Assembly: GCF_021028975.2 (NCBI RefSeq)
Contig: NC_059434.1
Location: 65,162,001-65,226,000, forward strand
DNA length: 64,000 nt
DNA from: Sphaerodactylus townsendi
Taxonomy: Eukaryota
Direction: 5' to 3'
Shown: positions 5,780 through 56,582 of the stretch, one piece after another
Layout: each line of letters begins with the position of its first letter
Numbering within the stretch: the first letter of the stretch is position 1
Translations under genes and position numbers: made by a program
The notes under the pieces: model-generated
Told to the model about the DNA's origin: nothing
The model's input: only the letters and a program-made list of their open reading frames with translations
The model's database searches: none

Positions 5780-6275
5780 GGCTGTTTCCACATGGGTGGA
5801 AACCCTAGGGACGGTTAAAACATCATCCCTGGGCGCTGTTCACACAGCAGGCACTGCTGCATCACAGCAGTGCTGTGCTGGGCTTGCCCAAGTGGCGCAA
5901 AGACACCGCTTTTAAACCTCGCTCCTTGAGCAGCGCTCCCTGAGTGGCATCTTCCCACCGGCGTGGTACAAACTGCACCAGCATGAGGCCACCACTTTTG
6001 GCCCCTCCAGTATCTGCGAGGGACTTACCTTGCCTTCCTCTGCAGCTTTGGGCAACTGGAAAGACACGTCCATGCTGCCCTGTGACCCCTGAGGGTCGGA
6101 ACGCACCATGGGTGTGTCTTTCCAGCTTCCTGAGCTGCAGACACCCTGGGTGGCTCAGTGCGAAGCCGCTTCTGCAGACAGCGTCGGCATCGGGACTGGC
6201 TGCATGGGACCATGCGAACGGTCCCAATGCTCCACCGACTTCACAGCCGCTGCCTCTGGCTGTGCGGAAACAGCC
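5780..6275. mobile_element. Non-autonomous DNA transposon (MITE), PIF/Harbinger-like, family A
   Basis: Terminal inverted repeats (TIRs) GGCTGTTTCCAC..GCGGAAACAGCC, GC-rich interior, and a close homolog at 13278-13698. Confidence 0.8.
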
Positions 6276-8067: not shown

Positions 8068-8116
8068 ATGGGGTCATATTGCAGTGGTAGAGCATCTGCT
8101 TCACATACAAAAGATC
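8068..8116 (+). mobile_element. Squam2-like SINE 5' head, interrupted by the copia insertion
   Basis: A-box region CAGTGGTAGAGCATCTGCTT..AAAAGATC stops at 8116. The B-box region (GTTCAATC) resumes at about 11380. Confidence 0.8.
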
Positions 8117-8516
8117 TGTTGGTGTAAAAATATGAAATAGTAGAATAAATAATCACAGATGCTGCCTTTAGCTTAAATAAGCCTTACTAAGAAAAATAGA
8201 AGGGAAGAGTAACATGATAAAAACAATAAAACAGTCCTCTCTGAGCAAGATGCTACTTCTACATGTAAGAAAGTGGAACTCCAACTCACTGAGAACAAAA
8301 AAGTTTACAACTTCCTCTCTAGTGCCTATATGTTTGAAAGCATATATTCTGTGGCAATATGTTGATTAACCAGTGACAATCAATGGATCACTTTATTAAT
8401 GCAACCATATAATTACTCAATGCCCCAGTGGATTTATTAATCTAGCTAACGTTTACTAACAAACAGCATCATTAATTTTGTCATGACTGAAGAGCTGACA
8501 CTTGCATATATCAACA
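8117..8516 (-). repeat. Inverted copia LTR (3'-type, preceded by a polypurine tract)
   Basis: Minus strand reads GAGAAGGGG (PPT) then TGTTGATATATGCAAG ... TTTACACCAACA. It aligns along its length with 8525-8910 (roughly 80% identity by eye). Confidence 0.9.
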
Positions 8517-8524
8517 CCCCTTCT

Positions 8525-8910
8525 CAAGTATCAGACACTAAAGTCATGAAGGAGTTAATTATGCTCTTTGTTAGTAAACATTAGCTAGATTAGCATAGCC
8601 AATGGGGCCTTGAGTAACTAGTTACCTGCATTAATGAAGTAATCAATTGATTGTCACTGGCTGATCAATATATTGCCATAGAATATGTGTTTCCAAGTAC
8701 ATAGGCACTTCAGAAGAAGTTATAAACTTTGTTCTCAGTTAATTGAAGTCACACTTTCTCACTATGTAGAAGCAGCATATAGCTCGATGAGGACTGTTTT
8801 ATTGTTTTACCTTTTATTTTTCCCCTGCTATTTTTCTTAGTAAAGTTTATTTAAGCTAACCAGCAGCATCTGTGATTAGTTACTTTGCTATCTTTTAGTT
8901 TACACCAACA
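8525..8910 (+). repeat. Copia 5' LTR lacking its first ~12 nt
   Basis: Starts at CAAGT (LTR position ~13), ends TTTACACCAACA, and is followed after 3 nt by the PBS. Confidence 0.9.
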
Positions 8911-8913
8911 AAA

Positions 8914-8927
8914 GGTTATGGGCCCAG
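8914..8927 (+). promoter_or_regulatory. Primer binding site of the copia (half-tRNA-iMet, Hemivirus) type
   Basis: GGTTATGGGCCCAG directly after the LTR. This is the PBS motif known for Drosophila copia-type elements primed by a cleaved initiator tRNA-Met. Confidence 0.9.
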
Positions 8928-9211
8928 AAACTTTTCTGTGTTCGCTTAGGCAAAGTTAGGCAATTTTTAAAAGGATCTGTTTTTCCTGTGGATGCTAATT
9001 TTGCCTCCTGAACAATTTGGTCTAATGATGCAAGACAACTTCTTCACTAGAGCCCACCCTCCATATGAGACAGAGGGAGAGGAAACTTGCTACAATTCAT
9101 GCCATGGGGAAAGGAAACACAAGCATCCCAAAGGAGGAGTTTTGAACTGTGCACCTGAAGCCAGCAATATGTCGACACTGGCAAGCAGCAGCATACCCCA
9201 ACAGACTGTAA

Positions 9212-9719
9212 GGCCCTTTCCGCAAAAACGCCGTCCCTAGGGAGCTGTTCACATTGGGGGCACTGTTGCATCACAGCAATGCCACCCTCGCTCCCCCCCC
9301 CTGGTGGCACGAAGCCATTGTTTCCCAACCTCGCTCCCTGAGTGAGGTTTTCTGAAAACAACGGCTTCCAAACGCTGCCATGCAAACGGCAGCGGCTGGA
9401 AGGTGCCATGTCCCCCGCACCATCCCTGAAAGCTTACCTTGCCTCCTGGCTTCTGGCTCACTGCAGAGGCCAGGGGACACACACACCCTGGCCTGTGACT
9501 CTAGAGCCATCGTTCCAGCCTGTGGGGGCGTGGCCCTTGGTTTCTGCGACGAGCCGTAGGCCAGGGGATGAGGTAAGCTTTCAGGGATGGTGCAGCCTTT
9601 GCAAAGGCTGCGCCTCTGCCTGCCGCCCTCCCAGGACCGTCCATGCGAATGGTCCCGGGGGGTGCGTCAGCATCTTTTACGCCAACGTACCCCTGCAACA
9701 TTGCGGTGCGTAAAAGGCC
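9212..9719. mobile_element. Harbinger-like MITE nested in the copia leader
   Basis: TIRs GGCCCTTTCCGCA..TGCGTAAAAGGCC with flanks TAA/TAC. Shares internal motifs with the other GC-rich MITEs in the window. Confidence 0.8.
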
Positions 9720-9744
9720 TACGTTAAAGTATTCTTTCTGTCCC

Positions 9745-11325
9745 ATAAGTACCAAGGCTAAACAACAGGACTATTTAATGTGGCAGAACAAAGTTCTGCT
9801 TGGGCCCCTTCCACACATGCAGAATAATGAACTTTCAGTTCACTTTCAATACACTTTGCAGCTGGATTTTACTGTGTAATAGCAAAATCCACTTGCAAAG
9901 AATTGTGAAAGTGGATTGAAAGTGCATTATTCTGCATGTGTGGAAGGGGCTCAGAAATGCAAGAGGTTTTGAACATTATTACAGAAGACCCAGTCAGACC
10001 CCGAGAAATGTTATGACAGCAGATTGCAAAGCATGCTTTTCAATTTTGAGCTCAATTAATGAGGCTAAATGCTCTCTAGTAAATGAATGTAAAGCTGCAA
10101 AAAACTTGTGGCAAAAATTGGAAAAGAAAAACTGTGTAAAGTCTTCTAAACAAACACAGCTTGTGAGGAGGAAACTAAACCTTTAGATTGCATAAAATTG
10201 GAAAGTTGTATGAGCATCTTGATAAATTAATGGAACATGTGAATCTATTTAAGGCATAAATGAGGGAATTAATGCCACAATTTTGATCAGTTTGCCAAGC
10301 TCATATAACAACCAAATTGCTGTTTTAGAAGCAAGGTACGAGGTGGATGTTGACCTTCTTAAAAGATGTGTTTGAAAAGAGACAAGCTAGTGAAATTTCT
10401 GTTGGAATGTCTGTTAAAATTACAGCATATAAGTGAAGGTGCTGTGTGTTACATTTGTCATAAAAAGGGGTTTATTGCAAAAATTTGTAGATGTAAAAAG
10501 GACACAAATTAACAGAAGCAGGAGAATGTGCATGTATCTGAATCAAATCACAGTATAGCTTCCTAAGGCAAATTCTTTGGGGGAAAGCAAGAAGGGAGAT
10601 TGGCTCAGAATTTTGCCTTTATGGTTGGAAGCAAAAGCTCCAGTGGAAAGAATCTGTTGCTTATAGACTCTGGATCTTTTTCTTATGTTTTCCCATGTTT
10701 TTCTCATGTAACAATTATGGGATATATTGATTTTATGGACCTAAAGGAGGCCAAAGGTGTAAACACTCAATTTGAACAGTTTGTCTCAAACAAGAGAGTG
10801 GAACATTGCTTGAGAACAATCAACAATTCAAAGAGGAAACTTGATAGATTTCTGTGTCTGTGTACAGTGACAAAACCTGACTTTTCTCCAACTGCTGGAA
10901 TCTTAAGCAGAAAAATGGATTCACCCAGTCACCATGATTGGAAAGCTGTAAAGAGGCTGGCTAGATACTTTAAACAAACAGCTGGTTTGAAACTAAAGAT
11001 CTCATCCTGTGACAACCCAGAACTGATTGGACACCTGAACTCTTGACTGGGGTGAAGACAAACTGTGGGTATCTGTTCTTCTACGGAGACACCCTGATCA
11101 GCTGGACTAGTACAAAGCAATCACAAGTTGCCCTATCAACAACTGAGACAATACATCTCTGCTGCAAATGCATGCAGTGAGCTTAAGTGGTTTGTACAAC
11201 TACTAATGGACTTTGGCATAGATGAACCTAAGTCAATAACATTGTTTGAAGACAACCAGTCATGAACTGCTTTATTAAAGAGTGAAAGCATTCAATCAAA
11301 AAGCAAGCATATTGTTGTAAAGTAT
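9745..11325 (+). pseudogene. Copia gag-pol remnant (frameshifted; integrase and most of RT deleted)
   Basis: Gag N-terminus VPRLNN/DYLMW; gag motifs KAAKNLWQKLE and ATILISLPSSY; zinc knuckle CYICHKKGFIAKIC (~10448); protease LLIDSGS; RT end TKPDFSPTAGILSRKMDSPSHHDWKAVKRLARY; RNase H ISWTSTKQSQVALSTTE..LFEDNQS..KSKHIVVKY. Confidence 0.9.
9802..9952. mobile_element. Small palindromic Harbinger-like MITE nested in copia gag
   Basis: GGGCCCCTTCCACACATGCAGAATAATG ... CATTATTCTGCATGTGTGGAAGGGGCTC. It interrupts gag between WQNKVLL and LRNARG. Confidence 0.85.
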
Positions 11326-11379
11326 TCCTCTGTGATTATTTACTCTGCTAACTATTTTATATTTTTACACTGCAAGAAT

Positions 11380-11605
11380 CAAAGTTCAATCACTGGCATC
11401 TCAAGTTAAAAGAACTAATAAGAGGTGATGTGAAAGTCAGATTTAGACCCTGGACAACCAGTGCCAGATGTCAGATTAAGCAAAACTAACCTGGATTGAA
11501 CCTCTGCCTGAGCCCCTGGAGTGCCATTGCCAGTTTGAGTAGACAGTCATGACATTGATGGACCAATAGTCTGATTCAGTATAAGGCAGCTTCATGTGTT
11601 CATGT
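11380..11605 (+). mobile_element. Squam2-like SINE remainder (3' part, with an internal duplication)
   Basis: GTTCAATCACTGGCATCTC..GGTGATGTGAAAG..GTCTGATTCAGTATAAGGCAGCTTCATGTGTTC. It continues the head at 8068-8116. Confidence 0.8.
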
Positions 11606-12100
11606 GATGGGATAAAAATCAAGCAATAAATTATTGCTGGTATGCAGGAAGCCAATAATTATAATACTGAGGACTTCTGTAAGCTCAAAGAATAGGCCAT
11701 GATCGTATAGAGGTTAGTACTCTGCGTTGTGTAAGCTCAAAGAACCACCATGAAAAAAACTGCCAATGTTTTTACATTATGACCTTGATTTTTTCTCCTT
11801 CTTTAAAGAAACAGTTCAACTGCAGTGATGTGGCAAAATTTCTGTCCTTATAGGAGGCTACTTGTGTCCCTGAAAGTTACCTCTGTGGCCTTCCTTACTT
11901 GATTCAGGAGGCCCAGACCAGCATTTTATGTAGCAAGTAAGAGAATTGGGTCTCCTGAGGAAAGGGTTCTTCTTTAAACTGGATGAAGTAATCTCTTTAA
12001 AATGAAAGAGCAAAGTGTTCCTCCAATTTTAAGCCAGAAGAAAAGAGTTTGAGAGATACTAGGTGTTTTGGAATAATTTCACTAAACCACGTCTTAAATG

Positions 12101-13277: not shown

Positions 13278-13698
13278 GGCTGTTTCCACATGGGCGGAAA
13301 ACAGAGCCCTAGGGATGGTTAAAACACCGTCCCTGGAGCGCGGTTCGCAAAGCAGGTGCTGGGCCCACAGAAGTAGTATAAAGACGCCACTTTTGGCCCC
13401 TCCAGTATCTGCGAGGGACTTACCTTGCCTTCCTCTGCAGCTCTGGGTAGCTGGAAAGACACGCCTGCACTGCCCTGTGACCCCTGAGGGTCGGAGGTCA
13501 CCGTGGGTGTGTCTTTCCAGCTGCCCAGAGCTGCAGAATAAGACAATGTAAGTCCAATGCAGACACCCTGGGCGGCTCAGTGCGGAGCGCCCCTGCGGGT
13601 AGTGGCATCGGGACTGCCTGCATGGGGCCATGCGACCGGTCCCGATGCTCCATTTATGCTCATGGGAAACCGCTGCCTCTGGCTGTGTGGAAACAGCC
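13278..13698. mobile_element. Harbinger-like MITE, family A (second copy, internally deleted)
   Basis: TIRs GGCTGTTTCCACA/TGTGGAAACAGCC. Long near-identical blocks shared with 5780-6275. Confidence 0.85.
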
Positions 13699-14836: not shown

Positions 14837-15302
14837 GGCCATTTCCACACAGCCAGCTGAGCGGGGGTGCATTGGCATAATTTATGGATGGCATAGTTCA
14901 CATGGACGGTCCTACTGGGTGCACAACCAACGACGCAGCCTTCGCACAGGCTGCACCATCCCCAAACAGCTTTTACCTTCTCCTGGCTTCCATCGTGTTG
15001 TGAAGGCCAGGGGACATGCCCCCATGGCCAGAGCAACGGCTCTGGAGTCAGAGGCCAGGAGGCATGTTCCCTAGCCTCCACAATGCGACAGAAGCCAGGA
15101 GAAGATAAGAGCCATTTGAAGAAGGGGGGGGCGCTGCCTTCCACCTGCTGCTGTTCGCACAGCAGCGGGTGGAAGACGCCACTTTTGGAAAACCTCAGTC
15201 ATTGAGCGAGGTTCAAAAGCAGCGTTTTCGCGCCACGACTGCCACAAGCATGGTGTTTTTACCATCCCTGGGGCACTGTTATTGGGCTGTGTGGAAACAG
15301 CC
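14837..15302. mobile_element. Harbinger-like MITE, family B
   Basis: Ends GGCCATTTCCACACAGCC / GGCTGTGTGGAAACAGCC. Homolog at 56167-56582. Confidence 0.85.
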
Positions 15303-56166: not shown

Positions 56167-56582
56167 GGCCATTTCTGCACAGCCAGCTGACAGTCCCACT
56201 GGGTGCAGAGGCGACGGTGCAACTTTCACACAGGCTGTGCTGTCCCCAAACAGCTCTTACCTCCTCCTGGCTTCCGTCGAGTTGTGGAGGCCAGGGGACA
56301 CGCCCCCATGGCCAGAGCAACAGCTCTGAAGTTGGAGGCCAGGAGGCATGTTCCCTGGCCTCCACAATGCGACAGAAGCCAGGAGAAGGTAAGAGACATT
56401 TGGGGAAGGAGGGGAAGAAAACGCCACCTTCCACCCGCTGCCGTTCGCATGGCAGCGGGTGGAAGACGCCACTTTTGGAAAATCTTGCTCGTTGAGCAAG
56501 GTTCAAAAGCAGCATTTTCATGCCACTTGGCCGGTGTTTTTACCGTCCCTGGGGTGCTGTTATTGGGCTGTGTGGAAACAGC
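56167..56582. mobile_element. Harbinger-like MITE, family B (second copy)
   Basis: TAA flank, termini GGCCATTTCTGCACAGCC / GGCTGTGTGGAAACAGC, colinear with 14837-15302. Confidence 0.85.

What the first reader, a model, noticed from the sequence alone, without database searches (positions are those of the whole stretch)
8068..11605. Three-LTR insertion with two U5 ends inside a single SINE
Seen: the SINE head stops at 8116 and resumes at about 11380 in register, with a degenerate 5-bp duplication (AGATC/AGAAT). The left end TGTTGGTGTAAAAATATGAAATAG and the right end CTATTTTATATTTTTACACTGCA are inverted copies of the same U5 end, so the unit looks like a TIR element. Inference: integrase joined two U5 ends in one concerted event instead of U3 plus U5. 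The interrupted SINE acts as an internal control for a single insertion.
Basis: partly seen in the sequence, partly recalled or inferred. Interest (0 to 1): 0.7.

Follow-up and report, generated by a model that had tools for sequence, protein, structure and literature searches.

The report
Retrotransposon with two U5 ends
An old, dead jumping gene inside a lizard-type SINE has the same end sequence at both sides, most likely because its DNA copy folded back on a built-in hairpin during reverse transcription and was likely still inserted by its own integrase; it looks like a rare one-off accident.

Summary
Observation confirmed, with refinements. The insert (8117-11374) is a decayed Ty1/copia element: complete 3'-type LTR-A on the minus strand with its polypurine tract (PPT), then a 5'-truncated forward LTR-B, primer site, deleted gag-pol, and a 46-nt U5 remnant (LTR-C). 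Both outer ends are U5. The SINE resumes in register after five extra bases. New here: every ordinary copy examined carries a ~27-nt imperfect inverted repeat around the PPT/U3 border, and the A/B joint lies inside it. A and B share a 5-nt deletion absent from 46 other copies, suggesting one template. Best reading (0.6): the nascent minus strand snapped back on this hairpin, was rescued by the normal second strand transfer, and integrase joined two U5 ends. Rivals: aberrant right end (0.12), post-insertion genomic template switching (0.17), nested copies plus deletions (0.08). Weak points: decayed right terminus, 3/5 duplication, substitutions alone do not pair A with B. No second case was found in this genome. 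Similar PPT-enclosing stems occur in three other copia elements tested. The scan noted a differently built two-tail-end copia insertion in a plant genome (unchecked).

The parts
8068..8116 (+). SINE head (tRNA-derived; Squam3-like by recall), interrupted
   Evidence: aligns to 5' part of other SINE copies, ends at family ...GAAGGTC
8112..8116 (+). left target-site copy AGATC
8117..8516 (-). LTR-A: complete 400-bp LTR, inverted, U5 end facing the SINE head
   Evidence: TG...CA; 73-81% to family copies
8517..8524 (-). polypurine tract AGAAGGGG preceding LTR-A, marking it as a 3'-type LTR
   Evidence: same motif before ordinary 3' LTRs
8525..8551 (.). fold-back joint: antisense copy of the pre-PPT hairpin arm, crossing into sense U3 within AGTCATGAAG (about 8542-8551)
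   Evidence: aligned to 9 pre-PPT regions and 10 U3 starts; unique in genome by pattern
8552..8910 (+). LTR-B: forward LTR lacking the first ~39 nt of U3
   Evidence: 81% to LTR-A over 363 columns; shares 5-nt deletion with A
8914..8927 (+). primer-binding site GGTTATGGGCCCAG after a 3-nt spacer
   Evidence: complementary to positions 27-40 of a tRNA-Met gene in this genome; 714 exact genome matches, control 0
9212..9722 (.). later GC-rich MITE-like insertion in the leader
   Evidence: gap in alignments to ordinary copies; related copies elsewhere in window
9801..9953 (.). later 153-bp palindromic MITE-like insertion
   Evidence: (I4); very high depth
9954..10690 (+). decayed gag and start of pol
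   Evidence: Pfam PF14223 Retrotran_gag_2, E 2.8e-6, 27.4 bits against cut-off 27, read with X at stops; 74-80% to ordinary copies
10712..11335 (+). 3' part of pol (RT end/RNase H region by motif recall), after a 1.6-2.2 kb internal deletion
11329..11374 (+). LTR-C: U5 remnant of the 3' LTR, joined to pol through the 7-nt microhomology TCTGTGA after loss of about 0.5 kb
11375..11379 (+). right target-site copy AGAAT (decayed)
11380..11500 (+). SINE body resuming in register
   Evidence: 87 of 118 conserved columns match, like the head's 33 of 46
11497..11606 (+). second, 5'-truncated SINE piece or internal duplication, supplying the 3' end
   Evidence: 98 of 109 columns match, but loci were chosen with this piece

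Best explanation
This is one old, dead Ty1/copia insertion with a U5 end on each side, likely made when the nascent minus-strand DNA snapped back on the family's PPT/U3 hairpin during reverse transcription and likely inserted by integrase using the two U5 ends. Shown: the anatomy (inverted complete LTR, PPT, hairpin arm, truncated forward LTR, PBS, internal region, U5 remnant), the inverted repeat around PPT/U3 in ordinary copies, the joint inside that repeat, the SINE register. Inferred: after first strand transfer RT copied U3, the PPT and 27 nt beyond; that 3' end paired with the U3 complement on the same strand and primed back through U3-R-U5 and the tRNA primer; the new PBS end then did a normal second transfer onto a full-length minus strand from the co-packaged RNA; extension gave a linear DNA with three LTRs and two U5 ends; integrase inserted it with a 5-bp duplication. 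Two MITE insertions and two deletions are later or incidental decay.
For: Joint falls inside the natural 27-nt inverted repeat. The 27 nt next to the PPT are pre-PPT antisense sequence and U3 resumes at the matching position, as self-priming predicts. LTR-B is followed by the normal spacer and PBS. Left end is exactly the terminal TG next to in-register SINE sequence; short-read contigs of two runs bridge it. Right remnant is U5, 95-98% to ordinary U5 ends, which rules out a simple inversion. A and B share a 5-nt deletion found in none of 46 other aligned copies; genome-wide the short form has 3 matches (A, B, one other) against 30 for the long form. A, B and one other copy form a clade with UFBoot 90. 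A-B distance (K2P 0.22) is at the top of the range of four ordinary 5'/3' pairs (0.13-0.22). Self-priming of minus-strand DNA and concerted integration of two U5 donors are both documented in vitro for retroviruses (PMC6088434; PMC2615609; passages).
Against: Substitutions alone do not single out A-B: partner ranks 10 and 9 of 45, whereas the four control pairs rank 1 or 2; identity is at the 57th percentile of all pairs; B is sister to another copy (UFBoot 96), not to A. The shared deletion sits in a near-tandem repeat and one other genomic copy has a similar loss; 39 of 1081 pairs share some deletion of 3 nt or more. The right terminus needs about four changes in 10 nt to be a clean integrase end. 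HIV self-primed products are described as dead ends and not detected in particles, although that concerns strong-stop DNA. The centre and right joints are not among the listed contig pieces (list cut). One case only.
Confidence: 0.6

Rival explanations
1. An ordinary two-LTR element inserted first; a later replication template-switch event with two switches (one at the PPT/U3 arms, one at the LTR's own terminal inverted repeat) produced the inverted LTR in the chromosome. Integrase never saw two U5 ends.
For: Gives the same product and also predicts the shared A/B deletion. Both joints have microhomology: 27 nt imperfect, and about 7 nt because U3 start and inverted U5 end both read TGTTGGT.
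Against: The second switch must land exactly on the terminus; 5-13 inverted matches of 7 nt or more are available in three ordinary elements with 100-200 nt flanks. A and C are no more alike than C is to ordinary copies, so the event would have to follow insertion closely.
Confidence: 0.17
2. The same reverse-transcription fold-back, but only the left U5 end was joined by integrase; the right end lost 5 nt and was joined by repair with an ~11-nt duplication.
For: 11371-11380 aligns to the last 11 nt of the SINE head at 8 of 11 with one gap, and the family has TGCAG at that place.
Against: The 5-bp reading needs only one inserted A in the duplication, total length is within 1 nt of the canonical expectation, and 5 bp is the family norm.
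Confidence: 0.12
3. Two independent family members nested in opposite orientation; one deletion between the now-direct PPT/U3 arms and another between the terminal ACCAACA repeats removed the rest.
For: Deletions are frequent in this family and in this copy; A and B are not each other's best substitution partners.
Against: Needs a nested insertion plus two exactly placed deletions, and leaves the shared 5-nt deletion to chance or conversion.
Confidence: 0.08
4. A simple inversion between the pre-PPT arm and the 5' LTR's U3 arm, or an assembly artefact.
For: An inversion explains the left two thirds.
Against: It predicts an inverted U3 start at the right end, but the right end is sense U5. Arms are 81% alike, not near-identical, and short-read contigs hold each arm with 0-2 other letters.
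Confidence: 0.02

Closest known systems
Ty1/copia LTR retrotransposons (squamate copies are reported as Mtanga clade, PMC11889832 passages)
   Same: 400-bp TG...CA LTRs, PBS, PPT, copia gag domain, 5-bp duplications in family copies
   Different: This copy has an extra inverted 3'-type LTR and U5 at both outer ends; integrase and most of RT are deleted; clade not tested here
Three-LTR 'template-switching complexes' in grasses (Sabot and Schulman 2007, PMC1950507, passages; bioRxiv 10.1101/452573, first 10,000 of 16,032 characters)
   Same: three LTRs under one duplication, attributed to an RT-stage or pre-integration event
   Different: there the elements share an internal LTR between two internal regions, with no hit for 'inverted' in PMC1950507; here one LTR is inverted, head to head with the next, and there is one internal region
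Self-priming of retroviral minus-strand DNA (HIV cTAR; PMC6088434, section 5.1 passages)
   Same: a hairpin at the nascent 3' end primes back on its own strand
   Different: there at strong-stop DNA, a dead end seen in vitro; here just past the PPT, where the product would regain a PBS end, and it is fixed in a germ line
In vitro concerted integration with paired U5 donors (PFV; PMC2615609 passages)
   Same: two U5 ends suffice for concerted strand transfer
   Different: retroviral enzyme in a tube with separate donors; not shown for a copia integrase
DIRS1-type inverted-LTR retroelements and TIR DNA transposons (recalled)
   Same: inverted terminal repeats
   Different: this is a single damaged copia copy, not a family; ends are LTR U5 sequence

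Membership tests
Ty1/copia | LTRs with TG...CA ends | tested here: met
Ty1/copia | PBS complementary to a host tRNA after the 5' LTR | tested here: met
   matches tRNA-Met positions 27-40
Ty1/copia | PPT before the 3' LTR | tested here: met
   in this copy it survives only beside inverted LTR-A
Ty1/copia | copia-type gag | tested here: met
   PF14223, 27.4 bits against cut-off 27
Ty1/copia | integrase upstream of RT | not tested
   region deleted in this copy; fuller relatives were not scanned for domains
Ty1/copia | 5-bp target-site duplication | tested here: inconclusive
   met in family solos (13 of 15 at 4/5 or better); 3/5 or gapped 5/5 here
Ty1/copia | two LTRs in direct orientation with U3 and U5 outer ends | tested here: not met
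   outer ends are both U5; met by four ordinary relatives
Mtanga clade | RT/RNase H phylogeny | not tested
   only literature passages on squamate copia
Template-switching three-LTR complex | internal LTR shared by two internal regions | tested here: not met
   one internal region; A and B are head to head
TIR/fold-back transposon family | multiple copies with the same inverted ends | tested here: not met
   one match each, none; none other spans the joint among 40 of 171 candidates scored
Squam3 SINE | match to the published consensus | not tested
   name recalled; PMC7983390 passages seen, consensus figure not available; abundance shown (1625 candidates)

The most novel reading that the evidence does not exclude
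Squamate copia elements keep a stem that encloses the PPT and U3 start as a conserved cis-element with family-specific sequence; it doubles as a snap-back trap, and this locus is a germ-line fossil showing that a self-primed minus strand can be rescued by second strand transfer and that a copia integrase accepts two U5 ends in vivo.
Probability: 0.4. Interest if true: 0.62.

Novelty: new variant of a known kind. Interest (0 to 1): 0.43.

Why it matters
If true, it is natural evidence that a retrotransposon integrase does not need one U3 and one U5 end, and that self-priming is not always a dead end. It names a sequence feature, the PPT-enclosing stem, that predicts where inverted-LTR products arise and that can be tested in any active copia system. 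It also shows one way an ~800-bp genomic palindrome can be born in a single step, and how such inserts are missed or mislabelled by LTR finders that demand direct repeats. The locus itself is old, dead and without sign of function.

Tried and rejected
Palindromic-LTR family: rejected; relatives are ordinary solo or paired LTRs and the joint is unique by pattern (exact or near-exact patterns miss decayed copies, and spacings outside 271-390 nt were not searched). Simple inversion: rejected. Tandem repeats: none. Substitution-based pairing of A with B: inconclusive (two rows, a near-duplicate locus and a poorly aligned outlier, were dropped). The tree also failed to pair one of four control pairs. 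Orthologous empty site: not testable; G000 has no relatives here, and the five runs found (two studies) that were laid (four) hold near-identical sequence, with no clean empty-site joint among the joints listed (lists cut). PPT stem in other copia elements: of 14 fetched, 8 gave an LTR pair and 5 with a clear PPT border were tested; three (L186, L187, L194) have 16-17 enclosing pairs, reached by 2-3 of 107-108 control windows, two (L183, L190) are not distinct from controls (23 of 107, 12 of 106). In the window's own family, minus-strand folding z ranges from -0.5 to -4.9 in 9 decayed copies against single-base shuffles. The inverted PBS pair at L157 is a MITE with a tRNA fragment, not a U3-U3 copia. 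Literature: searches listed no paper describing an inverted-LTR, two-U5 copia insertion (searches returned zero); listings only for most, the library lacks most subscription journals, and no supplements were read.

Full report
Observation. The stretch 8117-8910 is a long imperfect palindrome (I1, I6, I7, I9, I10; 78% over 808 columns), and the two outer ends are inverted copies of one 20-mer (I19). I aligned the SINE head and tail separately to 29 other SINE loci: the head ends at the family's GAAGGTC and the tail resumes at the next family base at 11380, after five extra letters. Head and first tail piece are equally decayed (33 of 46 and 87 of 118 conserved columns), as one copy would be. 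A second SINE piece begins near 11497, so the tail is composite; this does not affect the junction. The name Squam3 is recalled; I saw passages of PMC7983390 but not its consensus.

What the insert is. It is a Ty1/copia element. A copia gag domain is found. The primer site at 8914-8927 is complementary to positions 27-40 of a tRNA-Met gene of this genome. The 400-bp LTR family has many solo and paired copies (44 matches from 40 of 258 candidates scored; 48 distinct copies aligned) with 5-bp duplications. LTR-A (8117-8516, minus) is complete and preceded by the PPT and pre-PPT sequence of ordinary 3' LTRs. LTR-B (to 8910, plus) lacks about 39 nt of U3 and is followed by the usual spacer and PBS. 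The internal region has two later MITE-like insertions and lacks 1.6-2.2 kb of pol. At 11329-11335 a 7-nt microhomology joins pol to the last 46 nt of U5; six ordinary copies hold 470-641 nt between these points. That remnant matches ordinary U5 ends at 95-98% over 42 nt, so a third LTR existed and the right end is U5, not an inverted U3.

The joint. In all nine ordinary 3' LTR borders aligned, the 27 nt before the PPT are an imperfect inverted repeat of U3 positions 13-39. The window reads inverted LTR, inverted PPT, the whole inverted arm, and then sense U3 from the matching position; the crossover lies in the shared AGTCATGAAG. Folding support in these decayed copies is variable (minus-strand z -0.5 to -4.9). 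This joint is unique in the genome by a family-specific pattern with two mismatches and by a family-independent pattern, antisense PPT then sense PBS at 271-390 nt. No other candidate spans it among 40 of 171 scored. So this is an accident, not a family.

One source or two. A and B are 81% alike, an average value for the family, with K2P 0.22 against 0.13-0.22 for four ordinary 5'/3' pairs. Shared rare substitutions are weak: ranks 10 and 9 of 45 where controls rank 1 or 2. The tree groups A, B and one further copy at UFBoot 90, with B nearer that copy. The stronger sign is a 5-nt deletion at the same columns in A and B and in none of the other 46 aligned copies; genome-wide the short form has three matches (A, B, L148) and the long form 30. 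The site is slippage-prone, and 39 of 1081 pairs share some deletion, most of them within one subfamily or at a few hot spots, so this is good but not conclusive evidence.

Not an assembly artefact. Short-read contigs from two studies carry LTR-A sequence with 0-2 other letters; three runs of one study carry LTR-B, the B-PBS junction and the pol deletion, and two bridge the SINE/LTR-A junction. The centre and right joints are not among the listed pieces, and the list is cut. One study may be the assembly's source.

Mechanism. Inferred from the anatomy and the standard LTR reverse-transcription cycle (own knowledge): the minus strand, after first transfer, copies U3, the PPT and the upstream arm; once RNase H has freed U3, the 3' end pairs with its own U3 complement and primes back through U3, R, U5 and the tRNA primer. 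The product ends in a PBS, like plus-strand strong-stop DNA, and can make the second transfer onto a full-length minus strand from the second RNA. Extension yields inverted LTR, PPT, arm, truncated LTR, PBS, internal region, LTR, with U5 at both ends. Self-priming is known in vitro for HIV strong-stop DNA, where it is a dead end (passages), and PFV integrase joins pairs of U5 donors in concert (passages). I put this at 0.6. A two-switch genomic rearrangement gives the same product but must hit the exact terminus among 5-13 comparable microhomologies: 0.17. The right end may instead be a trimmed, repair-joined end with an ~11-nt duplication: 0.12. Nested copies with two precise deletions: 0.08. 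Simple inversion is excluded.

Wider pattern. Of five younger copia elements with different LTR sequences, three have a 16-17-pair stem enclosing the PPT/U3 border, reached by only 2-3 of 107-108 control windows; two do not stand out. This hints at a conserved cis-element but is a small sample. Ty1's 3' PPT region is reported as well structured in vivo (PMC7969010, passages).

Comparison and verdict. Known three-LTR complexes share an internal LTR between two internal regions. My searches listed no description of an inverted-LTR, two-U5 copia insertion, within a library that lacks most subscription journals. An unchecked note of this scan describes a plant copia insertion with two tail ends, two PPTs and no PBS; it is a different structure and I did not test it. 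Verdict: a real, rare structural variant of a known element, with a specific and testable cause, in a single old dead copy. Interest 0.43.

Noticed in passing
L186, L187, L194 (also L183, L190), PPT/3' LTR border: Younger copia elements with unrelated LTR sequence carry a stem enclosing the PPT and U3 start; distinct from controls in 3 of 5 tested.
   Followed up: partly
L157/L158 1383-1682, also L159: A ~300-bp palindromic MITE-like element whose centre holds a tRNA-Met fragment and its inverted copy, giving two opposed PBS-like motifs.
   Followed up: no
window 11440-11606: SINE middle part occurs twice, the first copy far more decayed; either an internal duplication or a second 5'-truncated SINE at the end of the first.
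   Followed up: partly
window 9212-9722 and 9801-9953: Two MITE-like insertions in the copia leader; relatives of the first lie at window 14897-15236 and 56256-56503.
   Followed up: no
window 6000-6275 and 13395-13698: Two ~90% identical copies of a GC-rich palindromic repeat flank the region 7.4 kb apart.
   Followed up: no
L005 and L098 (G000:C1, 64.18-64.19 Mb): Two 3' LTRs about 11 kb apart are 92% identical with 25 shared rare sites, probably a local segmental duplication.
   Followed up: no
L009/L010 (G000:C6:51814718-51816063): A 1.35-kb two-LTR copy with only ~0.5 kb of internal sequence and a GTAGA duplication, TRIM-like.
   Followed up: no
L034, L039, L081, L108, L112: An LTR subfamily defined by a shared deletion in U3.
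   Followed up: no
L183, L186, L194: Full-length copia elements of about 4.9 kb with LTR pairs over 99% identical show that other copia families inserted recently in this genome.
   Followed up: no
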